Assembly: GCA_963718665.1 (NCBI GenBank)
Contig: OY970359.1
Coordinates: 256,001 to 320,000 of the forward strand
Length of the DNA stretch: 64,000 nt
Direction: 5' to 3'
Source of the DNA: an uncultured Phycisphaerales bacterium
GTDB taxonomy: Bacteria; Planctomycetota; Phycisphaerae; Sedimentisphaerales; Anaerobacaceae
Part shown: in pieces, positions 16,109 to 56,701 of the stretch
How the letters are laid out: every line of letters begins with the position of its first letter
Position numbering within the stretch: the first letter of the stretch is position 1
Made by a program: the position numbers and the translations under genes
Notes under the pieces: model-generated
Database searches by the model: none
The model's input: only the letters and a program-made list of their open reading frames with translations
Told to the model about the DNA's origin: nothing

Positions 16109-16196
<88 letters not shown>

Positions 16197-16204
16197 ACAA
16201 TGAT

Positions 16205-16725
16205 TTATGATTTCTGACTTTCGATTTCTGATTTTGGCCCTTCGGGCCTGCGCTTCTTAAAGAACTCTGTCAGCAACGCGCCGCACTCGTCGGTCAATAT
16301 GCCGTTTGTAACCTCGACACGGTGATTCAGGCGTTTATCCTGAACGATATTATACAAGCTTTTCACCGCGCCCGTCTTCGGGTCGTCGCAACCATATACT
16401 AATCGGTCGATACGGGCCAACACCAAAGCCCCGGCGCACATACAGCACGGCTCCAAGGTAACATAAATCGTGCAATCATTCAAATGCCAGTTTTCGAGAG
16501 CCGCTGCCGCCTGGGTAAGCGCGATTATTTCCGCGTGGGCAGTCGGGTCCTGCAATTGTTCCCGCTGGTTGTATGCCTTTGCGATTATGGTATTGTTATG
16601 AATAATCACCGCCCCAATAGGCACATCGCCATTCTCCTCGGCGATTTGCACTGCGCTATAGCAATACGCATATATTGCTCGTCAATAGCCGGCTGTATGG
16701 TGGGATTAGAAGCTGATTCAATCAT
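16205..16725 (-). CDS. tadA: tRNA adenosine(34) deaminase; apparent frameshift near 16651
   Basis: HAE and TLEPCCMC motifs; the conserved N-terminal helix DEQYMRIAI is in another frame starting at ATG 16725. Confidence 0.9.
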
Positions 16726-16825
16726 AAATCAAAAGTTGAACAGTAGAACAGTTGACCGCCCCCGCTGCTGCCTTGTGACAGCAAGACGCGGGGGCTCCAT
16801 TTTTCCCGACCATAGTCGGGAAAAA

Positions 16826-16898
16826 TACCCCCAAGGGGAGTCGAACCCCTGTCTCCAGGATGAGAACCTGATATCCTAGGCCACTGGACGATGGGGGC
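16826..16898 (-). tRNA. tRNA-Glu(CTC)
   Basis: GCCCCCATCGTCCAGTGG...TTCTCAT anticodon loop...GGTTCGACTCCCCTTGGGGGTA; upstream TTGACC-N16-TATACT promoter. Confidence 0.96.
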
Positions 16899-17011
16899 AA
16901 TACGGATTTACGATTGCCGATTGCCGATTTATGATTTTCGCCCGCCTTCATTATCATTTCGGCGGGTAAAATTTAGGATTTTAGTATAGCGGAAATCGAC
17001 CGGCGGTCAAT

Positions 17012-17044
17012 AAAAAAACAGTCGGCAGGAATGCTGCCGACTGT
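17012..17044 (-). terminator. Intrinsic terminator
   Basis: ACAGTCGGCA...TGCCGACTGT followed by a T run on the minus strand. Confidence 0.75.
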
Positions 17045-17073
17045 CATAAACCTTAGTGCGACTGAATCAAGCG

Positions 17074-17379
17074 TCAATTTACCGAGCCGACAAGATGCTC
17101 CTTGCTGATAAATTGCGGCCCGCTCGTATTCTGTGTCCGGTTTTGCTCATCGAGCTTCTTTTCAAGCTCCTTGATTCGTTTGGACAATTCTACACGCTGC
17201 CTCGTTCCGCTTGCGGAACTGAAAAGTGCAATACCGACGCAAGTAATGAAAAGCAGAGATGCCCAGTCGTGTGCGGGACTCCAGCCCGGCTGCGGGTAAA
17301 CAATAAACGGCAGCGCGGCTACCAGAAAACCAATGCCTATCAGGTATTCCACAACCCATATTGGATTATTCTTATTCAT
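17074..17379 (-). CDS. Small hypothetical membrane protein (2 TM plus coiled coil)
   Basis: RBS AAGGAG, two hydrophobic segments, downstream terminator. Confidence 0.7.
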   Translation of the reverse strand: MNKNNPIWVVEYLIGIGFLVAALPFIVYPQPGWSPAHDWASLLFITCVGIALFSSASGTRQRVELSKRIKELEKKLDEQNRTQNTSGPQFISKEHLVGSVN

Positions 17380-17583
17380 ATTCCGACTCCTTACCTTATA
17401 ACATTGTATTAAGTTCTCATATTGGGCATGTAAAGAACGCCTGTCTCTATCTTGATTCGGCGTTCTATAGGGCTTACGTTAAAAGGGCTTCGCTTTTAGC
17501 ACTATAAAAACTGGCTTATAAACATAGCGATAACACTTATCGGACGTAGATATCGTTCAAGGAATGAACCCTGTGAAAGGCAA

Positions 17584-17657
17584 TAGCGGCGGTCGGATTC
17601 GAACCGACGACCCTGGGCTTATGAATCCCATGCTCTAACCAACTGAGCTACACCGCC
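17584..17657 (-). tRNA. tRNA-Met(CAT), probably elongator type
   Basis: GGCGGTGTAGCTCAGTTGG...TTCATAA...GGTTCGAATCC; paired 1:72 position (Ile2 not excluded). Confidence 0.92.
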
Positions 17658-21019: not shown

Positions 21020-21757
21020 ATGCCTAATGTTGCGGCGATAATTTGTGCGGCCGGCCCCGGAAAACGATTCGGCGGTAAACGACACAAGCAATTCGTCGAT
21101 ATCGGCGGTCGGGCCGCGTTCCTGCGAAGCGTCGAACTGTTCTCGAACCGCGAAGACGTCAAACAAATCCTCCTGGCTATCCCGCAGGAAGATGAAGAAA
21201 TTGTGGAAATCCGCTATGGTGCGAATCTCTCGCTTTTCAACGTCAAAGTCATCATCGGCGGCGTAACCCGTTTTGAAACCGTCAACAAGGCGCTCCAGTT
21301 ATTAAAAGACGATATCGAGCTTGTCGCGATTCACGACGCCGTAAGATGCTGCGTAACCGCCAAATGGGTTGAAGATGTAATCAAAACCGCCGCCAAAACC
21401 GGCGCCGCGATTCTCGCCTGCCCCGTTATAGCCACCCTCAAGGAAGTCAAAGACGGTATCGTTGTAAAAAACGTTGACCGAAAAGGTCTTTACGAGGCGC
21501 AGACACCGCAGGTCTTTGAGGTAAAGCTGTTGAAACAATCGCGTGAAAAGGCCCCCAAGACAGACATCGAAAAAATTACTGATGATTCGCAGTTAGTCGA
21601 GGCGCTTGGCCGCAAGGTCTCGATTGTTGAGACCGATTCCTCAAACATCAAGATTACATACCCTGCAGATGTCGCGATTGCCGAGGCCATTCTCAAGACC
21701 CGTCCCGACCCGAAAAAAGAGGGCTACATCGGCCCATTCTATGAAGCGCAATGGTAA
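21020..21757 (+). CDS. ispD: 2-C-methyl-D-erythritol 4-phosphate cytidylyltransferase
   Basis: AAGPGKRFGG..KQF, IHDAVR, AQTPQVF, TDD, NIKIT. Confidence 0.92.
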   Translation: MPNVAAIICAAGPGKRFGGKRHKQFVDIGGRAAFLRSVELFSNREDVKQILLAIPQEDEEIVEIRYGANLSLFNVKVIIGGVTRFETVNKALQLLKDDIELVAIHDAVRCCVTAKWVEDVIKTAAKTGAAILACPVIATLKEVKDGIVVKNVDRKGLYEAQTPQVFEVKLLKQSREKAPKTDIEKITDDSQLVEALGRKVSIVETDSSNIKITYPADVAIAEAILKTRPDPKKEGYIGPFYEAQW

Positions 21758-21866
21758 CTTTTAGCCCCGTAGGGGCTGAAAGTTACCCCCGCGTCTCGTT
21801 TTGAGAATCAAAACGGCGGGAGCCATCAACCTGAACGCCGAACGCTGTACGCTGAACGCTGTCTAA

Positions 21867-22601
21867 TTAACCTGCCAATCCTCGCAAACAACGCCCGCGA
21901 TTCGCCTGCCCCTGCGTTTCGTCTTGCACCCCCCTGCTTCTCTTTGTGAAGCCCCTCAACTTGTCTCGCAAGAAGCAGAGGGACAAGCAAAGCGTGGGGG
22001 CATAAGAAGCAAAACGGCCGGGGTCTTTTTCCGGAAAGTTCAACCTCGCAAACTCGCCATAATACTTTTTCGCCGCCTTATCATAAGCGTGTGCCGCTGC
22101 AATCTCGCTGTCGAATCTCCCTAACCAGATGCTTTTTTTGTTATACACAATTATGCTTGTCCATTTGCCTGTCTGCTTGCAAAAGCATACTCCCATATAT
22201 CGCGAGGAAGTATTTTTTCTCTTTCGTCTGTTTTGCATATTTTCCGCTCGCGTCGCGAAGCGCAGATTGCTCTTTCGATTATCCAATGAATCGCAATTCC
22301 TGTGGTCAACTAATCTTTCGTCGTTAGCGCCCATTATCTCTCTGTGCATAGACAGCATTATTGTCTTATACGGCTCGACAAATTTTAATCTGACCGCGTA
22401 TAAGTTATGTCCGCCGCCGTGCACAACCCATTTGAAATGTTTGAGCCGGTAATAATCCGGCTGCTCTAAAATAGTCCATTTGCCTTCGCCTAAGTAAATC
22501 CTGCGGTATGTGTAGCCGTAACGGAACAGGCGATAGGCAAGCAGTGGACAGGTGAAAATAAAGTCGAGCCAATTTTGAACTTTGATTGTAATGGTTGACA
22601 T
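21867..22601 (-). CDS. HNH endonuclease + AP2 domain protein (copy 1)
   Basis: MHREIM...VDHRNCDSLDNRKSNLR...N (HNH); SRYMGV...KW...WLGRFDSEIAAAHAYDKAAKKYYGEFARLNF (AP2); RBS GAGGAG. Confidence 0.9.
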   Translation of the reverse strand: MSTITIKVQNWLDFIFTCPLLAYRLFRYGYTYRRIYLGEGKWTILEQPDYYRLKHFKWVVHGGGHNLYAVRLKFVEPYKTIMLSMHREIMGANDERLVDHRNCDSLDNRKSNLRFATRAENMQNRRKRKNTSSRYMGVCFCKQTGKWTSIIVYNKKSIWLGRFDSEIAAAHAYDKAAKKYYGEFARLNFPEKDPGRFASYAPTLCLSLCFLRDKLRGFTKRSRGVQDETQGQANRGRCLRGLAG

Positions 22602-22609
22602 AATACTCT

Positions 22610-23017
22610 CCTCGGAGCGCAGCGCAGATCCCCGAGAACCCGCCCCATTGGTTTCGTAACAGGGGACCCACAAGAAATCCCAAATTTCAAATCACAAACA
22701 ACAAAACACAAAACGGAAATTGATTTGATTTACCTTGCGCACAAGGCGCGAAATCTGGGATTTCTATCCCCCCTACTGCCCTATCTTGGGCTACTACCCA
22801 CCTCCGGTGGATTGGACATTGGAAATTGGTTATTGGACATTCCAATCCGTCCTCCGACCTCGGTCATCCGTCCTCAGGACCACATGGTCCCTCTATATAT
22901 AGGGTGAAATTGCGATGGTTTTAAGGACTTAGGAAACTTTATTTTTCCGCCCAAAATTTGTAAGTTCTTATGGGAAAAGGAATAAAAAAAATTTCAAAAA
23001 TTGCCGGATTTTTTTGG
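22610..23017 (-). repeat. Conserved non-coding leader of the HNH-AP2 element (copy 1)
   Basis: Blocks 22610-22686 and 22847-23017 align with 45470-45587 and 45748-45918. Confidence 0.85.
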
Positions 23018-23229
23018 GGCCTCGCGAGTGAGCGTTTGATTGAATTGCCTAAATTAACATCGTTTCGCTGTAGGGAAAAGGTCTATTTTTAAGCTGAAAA
23101 CATAGTATATGCTTGTATGTGGTAGTATGCAACGGGTTTGGGGAACACAGATTTTTTAGATTAGCAACTTATTTTCATGGATTAGAAATAATCAATGTAG
23201 CTATCTTGCGGCTGACGTTATTCTGCCAA

Positions 23230-24451
23230 TCAATCCTCTAATTTTTTTATCCACCCTTCAAGCTTTTTTACATCAGAAGCCATTCCTACCTTTTTGTACA
23301 GTTCCAGGGCCTTCAACCAGTATTGGCGTACCTTGGTCTTGTCTCCTCGCTTAAGGTACACGTTTCCGAGATTGCCATAACTATTTGCCATTCCCTCAGA
23401 CCGACCAAGCCGCTCGTTAATCTCCAGCGATTTGCAGTGCATCTCTTCGGCCTTGTCAATATCGCCGCGTATCTGGTACACGATTCCGAGGTTTGACAAA
23501 ATAACCGCAGTACTTTTTTCGGAATTGATTTCCTTCGCAAGTTCCAATGCTTCACCAAGCACAGTCTCTGCGTCATTAAGCCTGTTCGTTCCAATCAAAC
23601 TGTAAACATATGTTTGCATTGCCTGCAATTGAGCCTTTTCGCTCCCGCTTTGTTTCGCTTCTTTGAAGAGACGTTCCGCCCAGTAAACCCATTCCTCGTA
23701 GTTTGTTTTTCCTCCTAAATACGCTCTTATTACTAGAAGCTCCAACCTACTTTTTGCATCTATATCATTAAGGGTTTCTCCTCCGGCAAATTCCTGATTC
23801 CAAAATCGAATCGCATCTTCGAGTTTGTTTTGACCCACAAGCGATTCAAACAGGGGTATCATATAATCTCGAATAAGTACAGACTTCTCTACCCCTCCTT
23901 GCTTAGCCCTACTTAATTGATCTCTTAGAACATCAATATCCGCGCCTGTACCTAGCGCCGGAAATCTTTTTGGAGATACTCTTCATCTCATCAGCAAGCA
24001 CCGTTTCCTGAAATCGAAATAGCATCATCCACTGGAGCAAATCATCGGCGCTGCGGAAAAGCTCGCGTTCATTCTCTGCGTTCAGCAGTAATACAGTACG
24101 TATCTTCCCCGCAGCAAGGCTTTCGCGTTGCAGATTCAGTCTTTCCCAAAAATCCTGGAGATTCTGTTCTGATTCATTTTCCTTTATCGAATCTCTCCGG
24201 ACAATAAGAACAACCTCTCCCATGCTCAGCGACCTTGAAAGCTCTCCGATTACGGGAGGATCAGCTTCTGCCTGTGCAATATGAATCGGTATCTGTGTTA
24301 AACCTCCTTGAATTCGGTTGATAATCGCATCCCCCACCAAAGGTCCCGGAACTATCACTCCGCACACTCGCCCCTCGGACTGCCTAAGAAAAGAAAGCAA
24401 CCGGCCAAGCTCATCCTCGTCCAGCTTAATTGCCGTAGTATTCAAATTCAT
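23230..24451 (-). CDS. TPR protein with uncharacterised N-terminal domain; split into two ORFs by an apparent frameshift at about 23970
   Basis: ORF 23933..24451 (LNLQRE...ADDLLQW) overlaps the open TPR frame (SNLGIVYQIRGD, YGNLGNVY), which extends well upstream of ATG 23862. Confidence 0.65.
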
Positions 24452-25790
24452 CGTTCTTTTAGATGCTCAGCCACAAGCGGATGAACTCTGTGCCATCCCT
24501 CACCATTATATTCAAGCACAGCCTGCGCCTGCAATAGAAGCAGATTGATTGGATCCGATTCGACTTTACGCGGACTCTTTTCGATATCTTTCAATCTTGC
24601 CATCATCTTCTCAACTGTTATATCGCATTTTTCATAATCTTTTGGTAACCCTACATCCCCTATCAGTCTTACCAGTTTTGCTTTAACCCGATTAAGACCG
24701 TAACGTACATCTTCTTTAATTATACATTTCTTACTACGTCCCTTTTTAATCGCCTCCTGTGCTGTCATTGCTGCGATAGCTATCGCCTCAAAAAGATGTC
24801 GTAACACCCCCCCGTCTTTTCTATTGCCAGTTCAATCGCATCATCATCTATGAGTGTCTTAATATCCATTCGTCGATCAAGGATTTGCCGAATAACTTTT
24901 CGTCCGATCTCGCATTTTTCACCATTCTTCTCTACGACCTTTATCATCGGTATCGTAACTTTCTTGAACAAACTATCCAAAATAGCCGAAGCAGGTGTAC
25001 ACAATAGCCATATTGGTGCCGTAAAAATCATTTTGCAGGAAATATCCGCCAAAGGCGCCGGATTTCTCAGAAAAATAGTATCTGTCGCCTCGATCGAAAG
25101 CTTGTCGAGATCCTCTATTATCAAAAGCATTTCGCGCTTGCTTTTTTCCTTTACGGCCAGTCTTGCCTCCTTCACAAGAATGTTCACTTGATTCACCAGC
25201 TCTGAAAGCCGATGATTTTCCCTTGTCACACACCGATGTAGAGTATTCGATCCTGTCTTGATGTCCGATTTCAGATATGCGCCTATTCCGATTAGCTTGC
25301 CAAGAATACTTTGACTTGTATCAGCGTGTGCTCCTCCCTGTAAAACCATTTCAAGTTGCTGTTCCTTGATTTCAAATGCCTCACTGAACCATTTGTATAT
25401 GGATTCAAGCGTTTTGTCATTCAGTTTAATGTTCAAATTCTTAACTTGGCGTGTTACCGCTTCAACAATCAATACCAGCAGTGCTTCCAGAGAGGCCTGA
25501 CTTAATTGCCCCTCGTCCATCATGGAAAACGATATTACGGTATAGGTAGCTATCTGTTCATCTTGAAATTTAGCAATTTCCGTTGATTTCCCAGAACCGG
25601 GATGTCCCGTTACCAGAACTTTAACGTTATTCTCTGTTTGCAGATAGTTTGCTATCTCTGTTCGTCGCGAAAGGTTGGGGTCACGGGCCTCAGCCGTTTC
25701 CTCAAATAATTCATCCAATTGACTCAGATGCAATGGTTTAAAATCCAATACTCTGAGAACATCTTCCAGTTTTTTTGCACGACTACACAT
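24448..25790 (-). CDS. P-loop (AAA/KAP-like) ATPase; frameshift in a G7 run at 24807-24813
   Basis: Walker A GHPGSGKST, Walker B LLIIEDLDK; adding one G joins KTGG to VLRHLFEAI (ORF 24448..24807). Confidence 0.8.
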
Positions 25791-26053
25791 AAAAAAACCC
25801 TTGAAATATATAATATATTTTAGCTGCTATCCTGGCGATGTCAATCGAATACCAAACCTGCTGTTGCTCGCAATGTTCATAATATACAACGTAATTGGGA
25901 GTTAGTCCAGTATTCCTTCTCTCTTCCAACTTCTCACATCTCCCTTATTTCTTTGTGTCTTTGTGGCAAAAACTATCCCCGCTTTTTTCTTTCATTGCTC
26001 TGCCTTGCGCGATAAAATCCCTGTTTTGATGGGTGATGATTCAAGGATGAAAT

Positions 26054-27532
26054 ATGCTAAAGAGCGATGTAAGGATACATCAGCCGGCGACAAAACCCCG
26101 GCGAGGATGGGAAGTGGTTACGAACGGATTTAACGGACTTGCGGGCAAACGGTTTCATTTCATAGGCGTCGGCGGTATCGGTATGAGCGGCCTGGCGATG
26201 CTCCTCTTGAAGCACAAGGCAATCGTTACCGGCTCAGACCGGAACCCCGGCGAAACAATCGACCACCTCTGCGAATTCGGCGCAGATATAAAAATAGGCC
26301 ACAAAGAGCACAATCTCAACTCGCAGGCGGACGCGGTTGTAATATCAGCCGCGATAAAAGAGGAAAACCCCGAACTGAAGCTCGCCCGCCGGGAAGGCAT
26401 CCGCGTCTATAAATACGCCGAGATGCTGGGCAAGGTGTTCCAGTTTTATCAGGGTATCGCCATATCGGGCACCCACGGCAAAAGCACTACCAGCGGCTGG
26501 CTCGCCTATCTCCTCAAACAGGCGGAATTATCGCCGAATTTCGTCGTCGGCGCAGTCGTTACCCAGCTTGCCGGCTCATCGGGCATAGGCACCGGTCTGC
26601 ATTTCGTCGCCGAGGCCTGCGAATACGACCGCAGCTTCCTGAACCTCAAACCGCAAATCGCCGTCATCCTCAATATCGAGGCAGACCACCTCGACTACTA
26701 CAAAGACGAAGCCGAAATCACCGAGGCGTTCCGCGATTTCGCGCTTGGCACAAAAAATTCGGGCGTAATCATCTTAAACAGCGAAGACAAAAACACCGCC
26801 AAAATCATCTCCGACCCGCGTCTGCTCGAAAACAACCGAAAAATCGAGACCTTTGGCTTTAGCGAGGATTGCAATTATCACCCCGCCAATATCGTCGAAA
26901 AAGAAGGTCTTTACTCATTCGACGTTTATCACAACAAGGAATTGCTCGGCTCAACTCATATAAGCGTGCCGGGCAGACATAACGTCGCCAACGCCCTTGC
27001 GGTAATCGCCGCCGCCCAAACCGCCGGCATCGCCGCAAATACAATCCTGCGGCTATTGCCCGGCTTCACAGGCGTTGACCGCCGGCTGATGCTAAAGGCG
27101 AAGGTCAATGGCATAACCATTCTCGACGATTACGCACATCACCCTACCGAGATTCGGGCGTCGCTGAAGGCGATTAAGGAGCATTACAAGCCCAAGCGGC
27201 TGTGGTGTATTTTTCAACCGCACCAGTACAGTCGAACGAGATTTTTGCTGGACGACTTCGCCGAAAGCTTCAAACTTGCCGATATTACCATTGTGCCGGA
27301 GATTTATTTCGTCCGCGATTCTCAGCAATCGAGAAAAGAGGTGAACGCCCAGGTCCTCGTCGATAAAATCCGGGCAAAAGGAAGCGAAGCTTTGTTTATT
27401 GACGGCTTCGATGCAATCTGCGATTATTTAACCAAACAAGTTCGCTCCGGCGACGTGGTCGTTACCATGGGCGCCGGCGACGTTTGGAAGGTGTCAGATG
27501 GAATTATTCAGTGGTTACGAAAAAATAGTTGA
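26054..27532 (+). CDS. murC: UDP-N-acetylmuramate--L-alanine ligase
   Basis: HFIGVGGIGMSG, GTHGKSTT, EACEYD, DDYAHHPTE. Confidence 0.96.
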   Translation: MLKSDVRIHQPATKPRRGWEVVTNGFNGLAGKRFHFIGVGGIGMSGLAMLLLKHKAIVTGSDRNPGETIDHLCEFGADIKIGHKEHNLNSQADAVVISAAIKEENPELKLARREGIRVYKYAEMLGKVFQFYQGIAISGTHGKSTTSGWLAYLLKQAELSPNFVVGAVVTQLAGSSGIGTGLHFVAEACEYDRSFLNLKPQIAVILNIEADHLDYYKDEAEITEAFRDFALGTKNSGVIILNSEDKNTAKIISDPRLLENNRKIETFGFSEDCNYHPANIVEKEGLYSFDVYHNKELLGSTHISVPGRHNVANALAVIAAAQTAGIAANTILRLLPGFTGVDRRLMLKAKVNGITILDDYAHHPTEIRASLKAIKEHYKPKRLWCIFQPHQYSRTRFLLDDFAESFKLADITIVPEIYFVRDSQQSRKEVNAQVLVDKIRAKGSEALFIDGFDAICDYLTKQVRSGDVVVTMGAGDVWKVSDGIIQWLRKNS

Positions 27533-43623: not shown

Positions 43624-44724
43624 TTAATGTTTCTTAATAAGCTCTAACATTTCTCGGTCGAGCTTGTGGCCCTTATAGTTTTCGTATTGCACATCGGGTC
43701 GGGTGCTGTCTAAAACGCCGAAGTCACCCCGCAGGTTCCACAATGCCTGTCCCCAGCCGACCTCTTTCCAGAGCGAAAGCACGTCTTTCATCCAGGCAAG
43801 CACCACCTTGTGCGGGGTTTTGTTATAGCAGCCCCATTCCCCGACGTGCACGGGCACGCCCATTTTTACAAGAGGCGTCCAGGTGTCAATCAGCATTTTT
43901 TTCAGGACGACCCTGTTCCAGACCTTTCCGTCGTCAGCTTTCATAGGCCAGGTCGGCACGCCGGATGATTCTAACGCGCTCTGCCGCACCCAGTCGGCAT
44001 GGTAATGGGTTACGGTCATAGGCGTATAGCCGCGAGTGCTTTGAACGACGCCGAGGTCGGCGATGCCGAAAATCGGTGTTCTGCCGTAGTTTTGGCCGTC
44101 GGAGACAATCAGCCGGTTCGGGTCTTCTTCCCTTATCGCTTTTGTCAGCGCGGTAACCACCCGCACGTGAGGCGTTTCGTCCGGTGTGTGAGGCGGCTCA
44201 TTAATCAAATCGAAACTGAGCTGCGAGCTCGGTATTCCTTTGTATCTTTTGGCGAACATTTTCCAGTGGAAAATCGCGCCGTCGAGGGCCTTTTGCATAT
44301 TTTCCGGCGTATCTTCGTAAAGGTCCACCGGCTCTTTTTTGCGGTCGTTGACGCAATAGCCGGGGATACGGTGCAAATTGAGGTTGATGTGAACTTTGTA
44401 TTTTTTGCCCAGCTCGACAACCTCGTCTATTTCTTTGATTACCCCCTCGTCAATTTTGAACCAGTCGTCTTTCGACGCCCATCTCCAGTAGGACATCGGT
44501 ATGCGGGCAAAGTCGAATCCCCATTCGGTCATTATCTCGAAATCTTCCTCTTTGAATCTGGCTCTTGGTCCCCATTCGCCGAATTTCTCCAATAGATTAA
44601 AGCCACGGTAGCGGGGAATGGTCAGCTTTGGCTTTTCCGGTTCAGCCGATACGCCGGTTTTTAAACCAACGATAGATGTCGCCGCGATTATGCCGCTTGT
44701 CTTGAGGAAGTCACGTCTGTCCAT
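43624..44724 (-). CDS. Tat-exported GH5 glycoside hydrolase
   Basis: DRRDFLK Tat motif, RGFNL, DLINEP (acid/base), HVGEWG (nucleophile). Confidence 0.9.
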   Translation of the reverse strand: MDRRDFLKTSGIIAATSIVGLKTGVSAEPEKPKLTIPRYRGFNLLEKFGEWGPRARFKEEDFEIMTEWGFDFARIPMSYWRWASKDDWFKIDEGVIKEIDEVVELGKKYKVHINLNLHRIPGYCVNDRKKEPVDLYEDTPENMQKALDGAIFHWKMFAKRYKGIPSSQLSFDLINEPPHTPDETPHVRVVTALTKAIREEDPNRLIVSDGQNYGRTPIFGIADLGVVQSTRGYTPMTVTHYHADWVRQSALESSGVPTWPMKADDGKVWNRVVLKKMLIDTWTPLVKMGVPVHVGEWGCYNKTPHKVVLAWMKDVLSLWKEVGWGQALWNLRGDFGVLDSTRPDVQYENYKGHKLDREMLELIKKH

Positions 44725-44860
44725 ACCCGGTTCTCCATAGCCCATTTCGATTATTTCACCGTCTGCGAACATCCTAACAACCTACCGGATTAAGTCAACC
44801 ACCGCATTACATTTGTAGAGAACACGGAATTTTTAGACACGGATTTCTGTACGCTGAACG

Positions 44861-45460
44861 CTATACGCTGTCCGCTGATTCTGCAAAATTCAATCTCGCA
44901 AACTCCCCATGGTATTTCTTCGCTGCCTCATCATACGCCTTCGCCGCTTCGATTTGGGTCTCGAAACTCCCTAAGTAAATTCTTTTCCCCTGATACCTGA
45001 TTCTCGCCCCCCACTTTTTGATTTCTTTTATAAAATAGAGCCCGATATATTTCGATGCCGTCTTTCCTCTGATTTTTGGCCTGTTATACGTATTCTGTGC
45101 AGGCGTCGCAAATCGCAGATTCGCCCTCCTGTTATCGAGAGAATCCCCGTTTTCGTGGTCAACAAGGGTCCCTTTGGGCGCATCGAGAATTTCCCTGTGC
45201 AAAAACGATGTCTTGACCCGCCCTGCAATGGTTTGTTTGAGGACCCGGACAGCATAGAAACGCTCGTTTTCGCCTGCTGCTGACCACTTCAGATGGCCGA
45301 ATTTATAATAATCCGCCGGCTCAACTATCGTCCACTCCCCTTCGCCCAAATATATCCGCCGATATGTATAGCCGTAACGGAGCAGGCGAAAGGCGAGCAA
45401 TGGACAGGTGAAAATAAAATCGAGCCAAACAGGTATCGTTATTGTTAATTGTGCAGACAT
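44861..45460 (-). CDS. HNH endonuclease + AP2 domain protein (copy 2)
   Basis: LHREIL...VDHENGDSLDNRRANLR...N; SKYIG...YLGSFETQIEAAKAYDEAAKKYHGEFARLNF; RBS GAGGAGG. Confidence 0.9.
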   Translation of the reverse strand: MSAQLTITIPVWLDFIFTCPLLAFRLLRYGYTYRRIYLGEGEWTIVEPADYYKFGHLKWSAAGENERFYAVRVLKQTIAGRVKTSFLHREILDAPKGTLVDHENGDSLDNRRANLRFATPAQNTYNRPKIRGKTASKYIGLYFIKEIKKWGARIRYQGKRIYLGSFETQIEAAKAYDEAAKKYHGEFARLNFAESADSV

Positions 45461-45469
45461 ACTTATTCC

Positions 45470-45918
45470 TCCTCGGAGCGTAGCGCAGATCCCCGCCTGC
45501 CCTCGACTGCTGCTCACTCGGCTTTGCAATCGGGGGAGAACCCGCCCCATTGGTTCCGCAACAGGGGACCCATAAAGAAATTCCAAATCCCACTTTTTAA
45601 ATTTACAATCCGAAATTGGAACTTCTGTTCCTGATGCCTTGCCCTCCCGGGGCGAAATGCTTGCTTGCCTCGGCGTAGCTCCTTGAGCGAAGCCGGGCGC
45701 TCTGCGCTACTACTTTTTCGGAAGACAGACGACAGAAGACAGATTAGCCGTCCTCCGACCTCAGTCATCCGTCCTCAGAACCCAAAGGTTCTCCTATATA
45801 TAAGGTGAAATTTTGGGTGTTTTAAGGAGTTACGAAACATTAATTTTCTGCCCGAAATTGGTAACTCCTTGCAAGACAAGGAATAAAAAAAATTTCAAAA
45901 ATCGTAAAATTTTTTTGG
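45470..45918 (-). repeat. Conserved non-coding leader of the HNH-AP2 element (copy 2)
   Basis: Aligns with 22610-23017; carries a 41-nt insertion at 45495-45535. Confidence 0.85.
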
Positions 45919-46241
45919 CAATATAGGCAATATGTCAATAACAGTTACACAGTATTATTTCCCGGCCTGCCCTGAGCAAGCGTAGCAAGTCGAAGGGATT
46001 TTTTTAGGGCACTTGCGAGACAAACGTTTTAAACAAACATATCGCTTACCTATTTTAACATTTCCCCGTCTCTGGCAGACAGATTTCCACTGCTCACCTG
46101 TTCGACTTTTCTAATATCTCGCGCAGCGTGACGCTGTTTTTAATGTGCCCTTAACGCTGGTTTTTACGCGGAAAATTTGGTTTTGAGTGAACAGTTTTCA
46201 ACTGCTCAACTATCTACTTTCCCGGGAACCTCAAAGAAACG

Positions 46242-47231
46242 TTAGGAAAACCACCCATTTGCATTATCCAAAAACGATCCCCTGTCGCACCAGATGATGC
46301 TGATCTTTAGACTCAGTAGCCATTTTTCTATGTTGGGATTCGGTTTCTTCGGAAGAAGAATCGCTTTATGGGGTTCGCCAAATTTCTCCTTCCCTTGGAA
46401 AGCGTAATCCAGAAGCTGCCCCACCGCCATCCTAATGTGTTCTCGCCGTGCGGAGCTTTTGGCCTCAATTAAGTTTCTCCTCTCTTTTTCATATCCATCA
46501 CATCTAAGTGTTCCATATTTTGCCGCTAAAAGTATTCGATCCTGTTTCTTTATCCAGTCCCGATAACTATCTATCAACTTAGCTTCAACCTTTTTAGCCC
46601 TAGTAATTCTGCTCTTCGTTTGAACCTTGTAGTCGAGTTGATGATTTTCGGGCAGATCAACTAAGTCAGTGTTCGGAGTTGTTATTGTTAGGCTACGTTT
46701 GTGCTCTGTCGTTACGCGATGTTTTTCGCCAGCTTTCATGTTCTTGTTGCCGAGATGGTGTTCCATCCAGTTGCAGACTTTTTTGTGAGCATCGTTTCCT
46801 TCGGGGTGAAGTTGAACCAATGCTTTTGTGTGGCGAAGAACATCGCTGAGTGGTATGCCAGATGGCGGTCGGCTCCACGGTTTAAATGGGAACAGTTTTC
46901 GCAGAGACCCAAACTTCTGACCTTGCGGTGACATGAAACCCTTCATCCTTGTTGCGTATTCGCCGTGAACTATTCCAAAACCAACAATTTCTGGCTCGCC
47001 CTTATGTCGCCTCGCAATCAGTATAACATCGCCGGGTTTTATGCCTCGCTTTGTCACGCCAGCGAACTTGGGACCTATTTGGCCATGACCGTAATCATCT
47101 GGTTCCCATCCCATGAAGACCGCGTGTTCCCGGACTGACGCTTCCCTCCACTCACCAACCGTTGCCTCGTTTATGTTCGGCGACACCACCCAATAAACAG
47201 TCTTTGATTTTGCCTCTTTCTTATTTGCCAT
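46242..47231 (-). CDS. Putative restriction-like nuclease (C-terminal PD-(D/E)xK; N-terminal possible EVE/PUA-like domain)
   Basis: RCDGY...LIEAKS...IRMAVGQLLDY; N-terminal YWVV...IKPGDVILI...IVGFGIV. Confidence 0.6.
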   Translation of the reverse strand: MANKKEAKSKTVYWVVSPNINEATVGEWREASVREHAVFMGWEPDDYGHGQIGPKFAGVTKRGIKPGDVILIARRHKGEPEIVGFGIVHGEYATRMKGFMSPQGQKFGSLRKLFPFKPWSRPPSGIPLSDVLRHTKALVQLHPEGNDAHKKVCNWMEHHLGNKNMKAGEKHRVTTEHKRSLTITTPNTDLVDLPENHQLDYKVQTKSRITRAKKVEAKLIDSYRDWIKKQDRILLAAKYGTLRCDGYEKERRNLIEAKSSARREHIRMAVGQLLDYAFQGKEKFGEPHKAILLPKKPNPNIEKWLLSLKISIIWCDRGSFLDNANGWFS

Positions 47232-47352
47232 AACCAGAAAGCTTAATCCCTGCCCAATAATTTGCAAGCCCCATTGCTGAATTATCTTGTCCTAATTATG
47301 CTTTTAGGGTATATTGCCTTACGTACTTAAGCATAATAGTTGGGCTTCAAAA

Positions 47353-47943
47353 ATGAGTGAGAAACACACAATTCGAAATAGGATTATCATTGGTGTTTCG
47401 ACAGGAATCATCTTAACTATTCTTACAAGTGCATGGCTCACAGGGATGCTGATCATGTTTCTCCACTGGTTGTGGTCGGCTATCAAGTTCATGGGCAATC
47501 TTTTAGTTCACCGAGTTGCGATACCAGTGTGGATTATCGCACTGTTTGGTATTTTAGCGATCTTTCCAATTTTGCATCTTGTGCGTCTCCTCGGAAGGAA
47601 AGAGAATGATTTGTCGGAAGACACTTACACCGAAGACAATCTGTTCGGCGTGGTCTGGAGATGGCGTTATAACTCCAGCGGTATAAATAACCTATGGGCA
47701 TTCTGTCCGCATTGCGACCTCGAACTTGTATATAGCGAGAAAAGATCCGAATATTGTGCGCCTTATCTCCATCCACCTGAGTTTACGGAATTCATATGTG
47801 AAAACTGCAATATAAAATCAGAAAAACTGCTGGGGGACAAATCCCATGCCCTGGGTCAGGTTGAACGAGAAATCCGCCGTCGTCTTCGGACAGGTGAATG
47901 GAAAAAAATTCTAGAAATAGGAAAACCTGCCGACCATGGGTAG
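47353..47943 (+). CDS. Hypothetical membrane protein with Zn-ribbon
   Basis: Hydrophobic N-terminus; FGVVWRW, CPHC...CENC. Confidence 0.7.
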   Translation: MSEKHTIRNRIIIGVSTGIILTILTSAWLTGMLIMFLHWLWSAIKFMGNLLVHRVAIPVWIIALFGILAIFPILHLVRLLGRKENDLSEDTYTEDNLFGVVWRWRYNSSGINNLWAFCPHCDLELVYSEKRSEYCAPYLHPPEFTEFICENCNIKSEKLLGDKSHALGQVEREIRRRLRTGEWKKILEIGKPADHG

Positions 47944-48043
47944 AATTGGAAAACAAAGAAAATTAAAATTATGGCACGATAACGAAAAATAATTGCTGTT
48001 CCCAGTATTACAAGGCACTAATGAGGAAAGGAACATTGGAATT

Positions 48044-48496
48044 ATGCCAAAACGCAAGCCTTACGAAAAAAGAACTGACCTTGAAAAGATTCACTCGCAA
48101 TGGCACAAGCTAACCGGCCTTCACACTCATGAAGAGTGGTCTGCTGCAATTGTCCGAGCAGCGACCGCTGCTGAACTTGCCGCCAACTTCGCTATACGCA
48201 AAGAGTTCGAGAGCAAAAGCAAATTCAACTCGAAGTTTATAGACAGCTTGTTGCGTTGGGGCAACGGGCTTGAAGGAAAGATAAATCGCTTGTTAATTCC
48301 GCTAACTATTGGCGAGAAACACCACAAGATAATAAAGAAGCTCAAAGGTGCTTCAGAACAAATCAATGGCAAACGCAATGCTATTGCTCATCGGGGTGAG
48401 TTTTGCAACGAAGCGGAATCAAAAGCTGCCATCCAACAGTCGAGAAAATTCGTTGAAACTCTGGTACAAATTTACGAACCAAGCTTTGTGCTATAG
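48044..48496 (+). CDS. HEPN-like protein (putative RNase)
   Basis: Helical 150-aa protein with AIVRAATAAE and an RNAIAH (Rx4H) motif. Confidence 0.6.
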   Translation: MPKRKPYEKRTDLEKIHSQWHKLTGLHTHEEWSAAIVRAATAAELAANFAIRKEFESKSKFNSKFIDSLLRWGNGLEGKINRLLIPLTIGEKHHKIIKKLKGASEQINGKRNAIAHRGEFCNEAESKAAIQQSRKFVETLVQIYEPSFVL

Positions 48497-48794
48497 GACA
48501 TAAATCGATGGCCCCCAGCGAACTCCGCATAATCTGTGTCTAAGCAGTCAGCTTTACAAAAGGGCAATAAGCCCTTGTGGATGAAGGCGGGTGGCAAGCA
48601 CACAAACAACGTTTGGAGCATTGCCTCCGCCAAGAACACAAAGCTGACTGTCCTCTGTGCAATCTGTGTCCTCTGTGGCTAAACAAAAAAACAGCGTAAC
48701 CAGCGTAATCAGCGTCTAAAAAAATCCTTTGTGTCTTTGCGCCTTTGTGGTAAAAATCTTTGTAATCAACAGGCACGGAATTCCTGGAGTCAGA

Positions 48795-49931
48795 ATGAAC
48801 GAGTTTGCGCAACAGGGCAATAGTGGACAACAGCCGGCAAAGCATCAAAGGCGGCGCAGATACAGCGGGACGCACCCGAAGCATTTCAATGAAAAATACA
48901 AGGAGCATAATCTCTCGGCCCACCCGGAAATCAAAGAGCATCTGCGGGCCAAAGGCAAAACGCCCGCGGGCACACACGTGCCGGTGCTCGTCGAAGAGGT
49001 AATGGCATGCCTGAATCCAAAGCCCGGCGAAATCGTCGCTGACTGCACCGTTGGTTACGGCGGGCACGCATCCGAATTCCTCAAACGCATCGGGCCAACA
49101 GGAAAACTGATTGCGATAGACGCGGACAACACAGAATTAGAACGCACACGCAATCGGCTAAGCAAAGACAACGCTCCTGTGAGTTTTCATCACAGCAATT
49201 TCGCGGGGTTAGCCAAGGTGCTGAAAAAAGAAGGACTCGCGGGCTGCGATATAATTTTCGCGGATTTGGGCGTTTCGAGTATGCAGATAGATAATCCCGA
49301 ACGAGGGATGAGCTACAAGCACGCCGGATCAATCGATATGCGAATGGACAGCCGATTAAAACAGACCGGCGCGGATTTGCTCAATACGCTTTCCGAAGAA
49401 GAATTGTCGAATGCGTTTTTGGAATTGGCGGATGAGCCGGACCATAAAAAAATCGCGGAGTTTATTGTAAACCAGCGGAAGGTTACGCCGATTACGCAGA
49501 CCGACCAGTTGATACGGATAATTTTCAGCGTAAAGGGCCTGACCGAGAAACTCTGGAAGAAGCAGAATCGGGCAGGATTCGGCAAGCTGCACCCTGCGGC
49601 GCGGACGTTTCAGGCGCTACGCATATTAGTCAATGACGAACTTGGCTCACTGAAAGAATTATTGAGAATCGCGCAATACTGCCTGCGGCCCGGCGGGCGA
49701 ATCGGGATAATAAGTTTTCACAGCGGCGAGGACCGGCTTGTGAAGCGGTGGTTTCGAGACAACGTCCGAGCGGGCATATACCAGACGGCCTCACCTGACG
49801 CGATTGTGCCCAGAACAAAAGAGATTATGTCGAATCCGCGCAGTTCGTCGGCCAAATTCCGCTGGGCGGTAATAAAATCGCAGGAGGATACTATAACCCC
49901 TACCACACCCCCAGGCGGGCCTGGGGGCTAA
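48795..49931 (+). CDS. rsmH: 16S rRNA m4C1402 methyltransferase with N-terminal extension
   Basis: HVPVL, DCTVGYGGHA, DLGVSSMQ, FQALRI, SFHSGEDR, NPRSSSAK. Confidence 0.93.
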   Translation: MNEFAQQGNSGQQPAKHQRRRRYSGTHPKHFNEKYKEHNLSAHPEIKEHLRAKGKTPAGTHVPVLVEEVMACLNPKPGEIVADCTVGYGGHASEFLKRIGPTGKLIAIDADNTELERTRNRLSKDNAPVSFHHSNFAGLAKVLKKEGLAGCDIIFADLGVSSMQIDNPERGMSYKHAGSIDMRMDSRLKQTGADLLNTLSEEELSNAFLELADEPDHKKIAEFIVNQRKVTPITQTDQLIRIIFSVKGLTEKLWKKQNRAGFGKLHPAARTFQALRILVNDELGSLKELLRIAQYCLRPGGRIGIISFHSGEDRLVKRWFRDNVRAGIYQTASPDAIVPRTKEIMSNPRSSSAKFRWAVIKSQEDTITPTTPPGGPGG

Positions 49932-56617: not shown

Positions 56618-56701
56618 GCCGAAGTGGCGGAACTGGCAGACGCGCAGGATTCAAAATCCTGTCCTGGCAACAGGGTGTGGGTTCAAGTCCCTCCTTCGGC
56701 A
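56618..56701 (+). tRNA. tRNA-Leu(CAA)
   Basis: GCCGAAGTGGCGGAACTGGCAGACGCG, CAGGATTCAAAATCCTG, GGTTCAAGTCCC. Confidence 0.97.

What the first reader, a model, noticed from the sequence alone, without database searches (positions are those of the whole stretch)
21831..25970. Candidate novel element: HNH-AP2 endonuclease + conserved structured leader + defence-like cargo (copy 1 of 2)
Seen: two loci 23 kb apart (here and 44847-48756) have the same order and orientation. Each has the 16-mer CTGTACGCTGAACGCT at the gene's 3' end (21845, 44847), an HNH-AP2 gene, a 400-450 bp conserved non-coding leader, unrelated accessory cargo, and a distal CTTTGTGTCTTTG..GTGG motif (25951, 48727). Neither locus has an integrase or transposase. 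Known: HNH-AP2 proteins are mostly described as phage or mobile homing endonucleases, and HNH ORFs with a linked RNA exist (HEARO/IscB), but those nucleases belong to a different family. Inference: this is a dispersed selfish or regulatory cassette family that marks or mobilises defence hotspots, possibly working with a cis-encoded RNA.
Basis: partly seen in the sequence, partly recalled or inferred. Interest (0 to 1): 0.85.

Follow-up and report, generated by a model that had tools for sequence, protein, structure and literature searches.

The report
Nuclease family sharing capsid-operon control DNA
This sediment bacterium carries 27 scattered copies of a phage-type DNA-cutting gene, most of them behind the same control sequence that heads its domesticated virus-capsid genes and often beside fast-changing defence genes, which suggests the copies are tied to a gene-transfer particle that reshuffles defence hotspots.

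Summary
The two loci are real but are 2 of 27 dispersed HNH-AP2 genes in this Sedimentisphaerales genome; 21 of 23 congeners hold 3-32 matches. The proposed ends are host short repeats: 5 of 7 exact 16-mers lie elsewhere, and the distal motif persists at an empty site. The leader is the key. Its ~130-bp core occurs 21 times: before 20 nuclease genes and before a single-copy portal-scaffold-capsid operon. It also precedes the portal in 57 of 59 other species and second small-terminase genes, and stands without any gene in two congeners lacking the nuclease. An intact terminase lies elsewhere. Low-GC cargo, often restriction-modification, lies upstream of 15 of 27 copies versus 8-11% of controls, and differs in every relative; empty sites and a chimeric gene exist. 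Best reading: homing-type nucleases wired into a gene-transfer-agent-like regulon, with leader and gene start acting as recombination anchors. No particle, transcript or cutting is shown, and the capsid operon was not found in several carriers.

The parts
21867..22601 (-). HNH-AP2 gene, copy E04 (244 aa; family N-terminal helix, HNH_3, AP2, 50-aa read-on tail)
22602..22894 (-). inferred 5' untranslated region of E04: short hairpins (22754-22894) and host short repeats
   Evidence: start site inferred, not mapped
22887..23015 (-). type-A control core shared with the capsid operon: A/T tracts, imperfect inverted repeat 22961-22983, half site 22919-22932, CCCTATATATAGAGG box 22890-22904
23045..23058 (-). 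upstream type-A motif (GTTAA-n4-GGCAA-like), approximate limit of conservation
23230..25790 (-). cargo of E04: P-loop ATPase-like 24780-25790, ORFs 24448-24807 and 23933-24451, TPR protein 23230-23862; GC 0.42-0.48; not found at this site in any relative examined
21845..21860 (+). 16-mer: host heptamer tandem repeat, not an element end
25951..25969 (+). distal motif: host nonamer-type repeat, not an element end
21020..21757 (+). ispD, left flank; adjacent to murC (102 bp apart) in G018
26054..27532 (+). murC-type Mur ligase, right flank
44861..45460 (-). HNH-AP2 gene, copy E05 (199 aa)
45461..45795 (-). inferred 5' untranslated region of E05 with hairpin modules (45615-45795) and host repeats
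45788..45916 (-). type-A control core of E05 (inverted repeat 45862-45884)
46137..46150 (-). GGG-n-ACATTAAAAA motif, otherwise the upstream part of type-B leaders
46242..48496 (.). cargo of E05: 46242-47231(-) unknown (EVE/NucS-like neighbours in the Atlas, a lead only), 47314-47943(+) membrane/Zn-ribbon-like, 47993-48496(+) weak HEPN
44847..44862 (+). 16-mer host repeat at E05 3' end
48727..48751 (+). distal motif; a near-identical sequence is present at the empty G007 site, so it belongs to the host spacer before rsmH
43624..44772 (-). GH5 glycoside hydrolase, flank
48795..49931 (+). rsmH/MraW-family methyltransferase, flank; 137 bp from GH5 in G007

Best explanation
The dispersed unit is [control element + short-hairpin 5' region + HNH-AP2 gene], without defined ends. 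SHOWN: the control element is the same sequence that heads a vertically inherited, single-copy phage head operon (portal, scaffold, SU10 capsid, about eight more genes) and second small-terminase genes; an intact terminase module lies elsewhere; the nucleases keep their catalytic motif under purifying selection; leaders, gene starts and upstream cargo are swapped between loci. INFERRED: the element is the late promoter of a gene-transfer-agent-like particle, so the phage-derived homing-type nucleases are made when the particle programme is on. They nick chromosomal DNA at or near such loci, which biases packaging or stimulates recombination there. Incoming or ectopic fragments then recombine using the conserved leader and first ~120 nt of the gene as one homology arm and host short repeats or the flanking gene as the other, so accessory and defence genes turn over on the upstream side and the nuclease persists like a free-standing homing endonuclease.
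For: Core model: 21 strong hits in the genome, 20 nuclease loci plus the head operon, next best E 0.24. Core before the portal in 57 of 59 scorable loci, shuffles none (about 6 overlap the training set). Leaders track their own lineage's head leader: G000 type-B 0.71-0.84 to own, 0.56-0.70 to G014/G008/G015; a G022 copy 0.81 to its own; same by eye in G026. Leader before second terS in G008, G014, G017, G013, G021 twice, weaker in G024, G028. Capsid in 27 of 41, TerL in 40 of 41, TerS in 36 of 41 genomes, dN/dS 0.08-0.14. A plain phage-type HNH-AP2 sits inside the packaging operon of G026. DH..N..N..N motif in 25 of 25 full-length copies, median dN/dS 0.23; fold matches AP2 and weakly I-HmuI. 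G017 gene at the E05 site is 60-63% identical for 120 nt, then 92-98%, and carries a type-B leader; leader types are scattered over the tree. Low-GC island upstream of 15 of 27 copies, downstream of 6, controls 7.6-11%.
Against: No particle, transcript, start site or nuclease activity is shown. The capsid gene was not found in 11 of 23 congeners; in G002, G007, G019, G020 and G040 (91-97% complete) neither capsid nor portal was found although they hold 5-27 nuclease matches. 7 of 27 copies have a sigma70-type promoter instead. G013 and G021 keep many leaders with no nuclease, so the nuclease is dispensable for leader dispersal. Both window sites carry foreign cargo without nuclease or leader in several relatives, and only 21 of 112 low-GC islands adjoin a copy: hotspots can exist without the element. 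No recent duplicates (lowest synonymous divergence between paralogues 0.53). The core was not found near the terminase operon in 20 of 20 loci scanned. The IHF-site idea failed its consensus test.
Confidence: 0.45

Rival explanations
1. The DNA element itself is a packaging-initiation (pac-like) site plus promoter, amplified to 10-30 chromosomal places; nuclease genes, second terS genes or nothing are passengers behind it, and neighbouring cargo is moved by directed packaging.
For: Leader heads portal and terS genes, where phage pac sites usually lie (P22 pac in terS: PMC11260489 passages); gene-less copies in G013 and G021 (7 with 670+ nt downstream have no ATG ORF over 56 aa) share downstream repeats and end tracts with the leader-terS units of the same genomes (by eye); TerL kept in 40 of 41 genomes.
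Against: Fixed position 40-380 nt before start codons and a hairpin right after the TATAG box fit a promoter; pac-directed packaging is one-directional and would not obviously carry upstream cargo; only 4 of 13 gene-less loci map within 6 kb of a G000 copy (background 14%); carriers without a detectable head operon.
Confidence: 0.2
2. Ordinary free-standing homing endonucleases from an ancestral phage that captured a convenient promoter and spread among repeat-rich intergenic hotspots by recombination, with DNA arriving by any route; the link to the capsid operon is historical.
For: Persistence where head genes were not found; 7 copies with a sigma70-type promoter; faster divergence than flanks at one site (synonymous 0.74-1.2 vs 0.28-0.38 for ispD); cargo at the same sites without the element; phage relatives at 32-45% identity over the catalytic part.
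Against: Leaders stay matched to each lineage's own head leader and the same element heads terS genes, which implies continuing shared control or exchange; no fixed target sequence or discrete insertion point was seen.
Confidence: 0.2
3. Domesticated accessory proteins of the particle programme: a panel of nickases with different specificities that fragments the chromosome or assists terminase (as reported for HK97's HNH), or AP2 DNA-binding regulators.
For: 25 of 27 frames intact under purifying selection; CcGTA's activator controls about 18 scattered accessory promoters (PMC11150451 passages); an HNH-AP2 lies in one packaging operon.
Against: Copy number 0-32 among congeners, presence/absence at orthologous sites and replacement by distant paralogues (45-58% at the E05 site in G019, G002) are not what essential accessory genes show; most of the order has the kit without the family.
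Confidence: 0.1
4. One reading: a bounded mobile cassette with terminal motifs, carrying cargo, working with a cis-encoded guide RNA.
For: Covarying hairpins in type-A/C 5' regions (9 of 20 pairs with both-side changes, 0 of 500 shuffles).
Against: End motifs are independent host repeats; cargo never shared between loci or relatives; hairpins are short, optional and absent from type-B copies; no Rfam family; the protein has its own AP2 DNA-binding domain.
Confidence: 0.05

Closest known systems
Free-standing HNH-AP2 (IPA-HNH) homing endonuclease genes and 'HEG-islands' of phages (PMC10448857; passages and part 1 of 2 of the Discussion read)
   Same: HNH plus C-terminal AP2 architecture; no discrete boundaries; cargo exchanged by recombination next to the nuclease gene.
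   Different: Here chromosomal, up to about 30 per genome, one gene per locus, each with its own copy of a shared control element, a family-specific N-terminal helix, and accessory/defence rather than essential phage cargo.
Caulobacter CcGTA regulon (GafY/IHF/GafZ; PMC11150451, abstract and passages)
   Same: Phage-derived head and packaging genes in separate loci, with one promoter class shared by the main cluster and about 18-20 scattered promoters; a sigma-region-4-like HTH protein is encoded at the head of the packaging operon here.
   Different: Unrelated capsid lineage (SU10-type, no tail tube or tape measure found); the scattered targets are paralogous nucleases that come and go; no particle shown; IHF consensus not enriched.
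pac-like sites in host chromosomes (P22; PMC11260489 passages) and terminase-assisting HNH of HK97 (as described in PMC10448857)
   Same: Dispersed sequences related to the terS region could direct packaging of neighbouring host DNA.
   Different: Here the shared sequence is 130-420 bp, promoter-like and gene-linked; packaging from it is untested.
HEARO / IscB-omega RNA systems (recalled, not read)
   Same: HNH-type ORF with conserved structured 5' sequence.
   Different: Different nuclease family, no Rfam match, only short optional hairpins, no transposon ends.

Membership tests
HNH-AP2 homing endonuclease genes | HNH domain followed by AP2 domain | tested here: met
HNH-AP2 homing endonuclease genes | catalytic residues intact and under selection | tested here: met
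   25 of 25 full-length copies; dN/dS about 0.2
HNH-AP2 homing endonuclease genes | presence/absence at orthologous sites | tested here: met
   empty ispD-murC (G018) and GH5-rsmH (G007) sites
HNH-AP2 homing endonuclease genes | cleaves the gene-less allele and converts it | not testable with these tools
   needs biochemistry and crosses
HEG-island | two or more flanking HEGs bracketing conserved essential cargo | tested here: not met
   one gene per locus; cargo unshared
Gene transfer agent | phage-derived head and packaging genes, single copy, vertically kept, purifying selection | tested here: met
   capsid not found in 11 of 23 congeners
Gene transfer agent | no integrase or replication module beside the structural genes | tested here: inconclusive
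   none among ORFs annotated at the G000 head locus, but DUF1376 replication-type gene in the packaging operon of G026 and G022; not all neighbours annotated
Gene transfer agent | particles that package and deliver host DNA | not testable with these tools
   no virome or RNA run listed
Insertion sequence / transposon / integron cassette | defined ends, target duplication, transposase or recombinase | tested here: not met
HEARO / OMEGA RNA-guided systems | long conserved ncRNA matching the family and IscB-type protein | tested here: not met
GafY/IHF-type GTA promoter | IHF consensus site upstream of the core promoter | tested here: inconclusive
   recalled E. coli consensus: 15 of 26 leaders within 2 mismatches vs 57% of 306 AT-rich controls; 4 of 26 within 1 vs 9%; this lineage's motif may differ

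The most novel reading that the evidence does not exclude
A planctomycete gene transfer agent with programmed, not random, packaging: its late-promoter/packaging element has been amplified to 10-30 chromosomal stations, most fitted with a nuclease of individual specificity, so that defence and other accessory genes parked beside them are preferentially cut out, packaged and swapped through the population.
Probability: 0.25. Interest if true: 0.92.

Novelty: new variant of a known kind. Interest (0 to 1): 0.78.

Why it matters
Free-standing homing endonucleases are described mainly from phages, and gene transfer agents are thought to package host DNA nearly at random. A chromosome with dozens of such nucleases behind the control element of its own capsid operon, beside hypervariable defence loci, would show selfish genes exploiting (or steering) a transfer particle and would give a concrete mechanism for how defence hotspots form. 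The shared element gives direct tests: co-induction, start sites, and coverage steps in particle DNA. It also supplies a large natural panel of compact 190-aa HNH-AP2 nucleases with variable DNA-contacting segments.

Tried and rejected
End motifs as termini: rejected. Rfam: only tRNAs in the window. Terminase by PF03237, PF03354, PF04466, PF05876: no hit; found with PF17289 and phrog_2. Search for sigma-factor genes with PF08281 gave no answer twice. IHF consensus: not enriched. Insert inside the G006 head leader: an IS1595-like transposase element with a short duplicated target, not cargo capture (family name from recalled motifs). Strand bias and even spacing of copies: none (14 leading, 13 lagging; p 0.23). 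My first structure string had helix 1 out of register; the corrected count is. Single-sequence fold failed (pLDDT 39). TerL with HNH-AP2 complex prediction: no verdict. Sequencing runs: no RNA holder listed; contigs of 4 runs cover the E05 locus but show no trustworthy empty-allele joint. Viral contigs: 20 loci, none matching the N-terminal 29 residues and no leader hit. Simple promoter scan of 21700-23250: nothing above chance. Defence annotation used 61-64 hand-picked, mostly low-GC proteins, so it has no background; only the GC test is controlled. The tree used 58 sequences (E20, E23 and 8 other loci dropped for lack of a full frame) and is poorly resolved at depth. Two papers opened were not relevant (bioRxiv 2022.02.18.481119, PMC10945688; passages).
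Full report
Observation. Both loci are as described in gene order: HNH-AP2 genes at 21867-22601(-) and 44861-45460(-) with Pfam HNH_3 and AP2 hits, conserved upstream DNA, lower-GC cargo, and flanks ispD/murC and GH5/rsmH. The window lies in a 2.61-Mb single-contig genome; titles of related genomes place it in Sedimentisphaerales. Rfam finds only tRNAs.

Not two copies but 27. tblastn gives 27 dispersed copies, 40-62% identical to the two window proteins, 25 with intact frames. 21 of 23 congeners have 3-32 matches, G013 and G021 none; G026, G033 and G040 of two other families have 16, 7 and 11. An alignment search of 120 further class genomes (other families) found no full-length match at E 1e-45. 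The catalytic DH..N..N..N pattern is kept in 25 of 25 full-length copies and median dN/dS is 0.23 over 213 of 300 unsaturated pairs; no two paralogues are recent duplicates. The alignment-based model (pLDDT 93) matches AP2 domains and, weakly, I-HmuI and I-PpoI.

The ends are host repeats. The 16-mer has 7 exact copies, 2 near a nuclease gene; the loose distal family has 74, 8 near. At the empty GH5-rsmH site of G007 the distal motif is still there and no target duplication is visible. In G018 ispD and murC are 102 bp apart.

The leader. Three types: A (10 copies, including both window loci), B (10) and C (7, sigma70-like; one separated from its gene by an insertion sequence). A and B share a ~130-bp core: A/T tracts, an imperfect inverted repeat, and a TATAG-AGAGG box followed by a hairpin; C keeps only the inverted repeat at a similar distance. 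The core model has 21 strong hits, 20 nuclease loci and one more, with the next at E 0.24. Type-A and C 5' regions carry up to four or five short hairpins; on 12 sequences chosen for lacking insertions, 9 of 20 pairs change on both sides, 0 of 500 shuffles reach this; related sequences inflate such counts, and modules drop out singly. Type B also holds a palindromic array that recurs once more, before a TetR-efflux operon (TetR named from its sequence, not scanned).

The 21st hit heads a phage head operon: SPP1-like portal, scaffold, SU10 major capsid and about eight further genes, no tail tube or tape measure recognised. The capsid gene is single-copy in 27 of 41 order genomes at 57-96% identity, with 353 matching stretches in the species collection. 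Of the 80 best loci, 59 had the portal start and enough upstream DNA; 57 carry the core at E under 0.01, shuffles none, about 6 being training sequences. A terminase large subunit with intact motifs lies at G000 975254-976822, behind TerS- and ParB-like genes; it is in 40 of 41 genomes. In relatives that operon starts with a double sigma-region-4-like HTH gene, an ABC ATPase and an acetyltransferase-like gene; G026 also has DUF1376 and a plain phage-type HNH-AP2 there. dN/dS of capsid, portal and TerL is 0.08-0.14. Nuclease leaders resemble their own lineage's head leader more than others' (for G026). The leader also heads second terS genes in G008, G014, G017, G013 and G021, more weakly G024 and G028, and in G013 and G021 it stands at several places with no gene behind it. 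It was not found near the terminase operon in 20 of 20 loci.

Cargo and exchange. The 1.5 kb upstream of the leader is at or below the 16th GC percentile in 20 of 26 copies (17 of 19 for A and B), downstream in 4 of 26. A low-GC island lies upstream of 15 of 27 copies, downstream of 6, against 7.6% of 1557 ordinary genes and 11% of 221 operon heads; there are 112 islands in all. Among hand-picked neighbours are type II, IIG and III restriction-modification genes at five loci, further restriction nucleases, a dGTPase-like gene, Fic, HepT, BrnT, RHS and a kinase. At the ispD-murC site 5 relatives have a full nuclease gene (60-68% to E04, leader A or C) and G009 a fragment, each with other cargo; G007 and G017 have cargo only; G018 is empty; 8 of 17 are rearranged or unlinked. 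At the GH5-rsmH site G006 (96%, A), G017 (88%, B), G019 (45%, A) and G002 (58%, B) have one; G007 is empty; five have cargo only. The G017 gene is a chimera with its joint near nucleotide 120. Leader types are scattered over the protein tree.

Mechanism. Shown: shared control element, intact nucleases, domesticated packaging kit, one-sided cargo, modular swaps. Inferred: the element is the particle's late promoter; nucleases are expressed with it, nick near such loci and so favour packaging or recombination there; leader and gene start serve as homology arm for replacement of upstream cargo (0.45). Rivals: the element is itself a packaging site (0.2); plain homing genes with a captured promoter (0.2); domesticated accessory nucleases (0.1); bounded RNA-guided cassette (0.05). 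Against the best reading: capsid and portal not found in G002, G007, G019, G020, G040, type-C copies, cargo without element, nuclease-less leaders, no IHF consensus enrichment, no expression data.

Known systems. Closest are phage IPA-HNH genes and HEG-islands (PMC10448857: passages and part 1 of 2 of the Discussion), the CcGTA regulon (PMC11150451: abstract and passages) and P22 pac-like host sites (PMC11260489: passages). Nine literature searches listed no paper on a chromosomal HNH-AP2 expansion or on a transfer agent in Phycisphaerae; the library lacks most subscription papers and no supplements were read. HEARO/IscB, the IHF consensus and the IS family name are recalled. Earlier scan notes describe the domesticated head locus and the shared module in other genomes; I had reached both before seeing them, and they are not independent support. 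New here: the 27-copy census, one-sided cargo, empty sites, chimera, leader-terS units and gene-less leaders.

Verdict. Real and more interesting than first read, though for another reason: not a bounded cassette but a nuclease family riding the control element of a domesticated capsid system. New variant of known kinds; interest 0.78.

Noticed in passing
G000:C1:1660149-1669818 (L020, L048): Conserved single-copy head operon (portal, scaffold, SU10 capsid, beta-helix protein, holin/spanin-like, lipoprotein); minimal five- to six-gene form in other families.
   Followed up: yes
G000:C1:975254-984635 (L134): Packaging operon with rpiB embedded, a restriction-modification gene inserted before parB, and an apparent frameshift in the acetyltransferase-like gene.
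   Followed up: partly
G013 and G021 (L281-L292, L336): Gene-less leader copies followed by conserved non-coding repeats and A/T-skewed end tracts shared with leader-terS units; possible non-coding RNA or packaging sites.
   Followed up: partly
G000:C1:1120984-1121031: Operator-like palindromic array before a TetR-efflux operon, matching the middle of type-B leaders.
   Followed up: no
window 24448-25790 and 23230-24451: Cargo ORF pairs overlap or abut in ways that suggest frameshifts (a run of 7 G near 24808); four public runs also show one extra base at 45700, so some breaks may be assembly errors.
   Followed up: no
L009:53-3625 (E11): One HNH-AP2 frame reads on into the downstream gene as a 1190-aa ORF; frames over 1200 aa also occur in G006, G019 and G011.
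   Followed up: no
L200:5970-7124: A 62-kb viral contig carries a 69%-identical capsid gene without the adjacent portal gene.
   Followed up: no
L077:655-2436; L293:2330-2820: Insertions at the same short T-G motif inside type-B leaders of G006 (transposase) and G007.
   Followed up: partly
L227, L235, L237, L242, L245: 68-aa ORFs matching only the N-terminal part of phage HNH-AP2 proteins, upstream of and divergent from the head operon (three translated).
   Followed up: no
window 16110-17657 and 56618-56701: Four tRNA genes.
   Followed up: no
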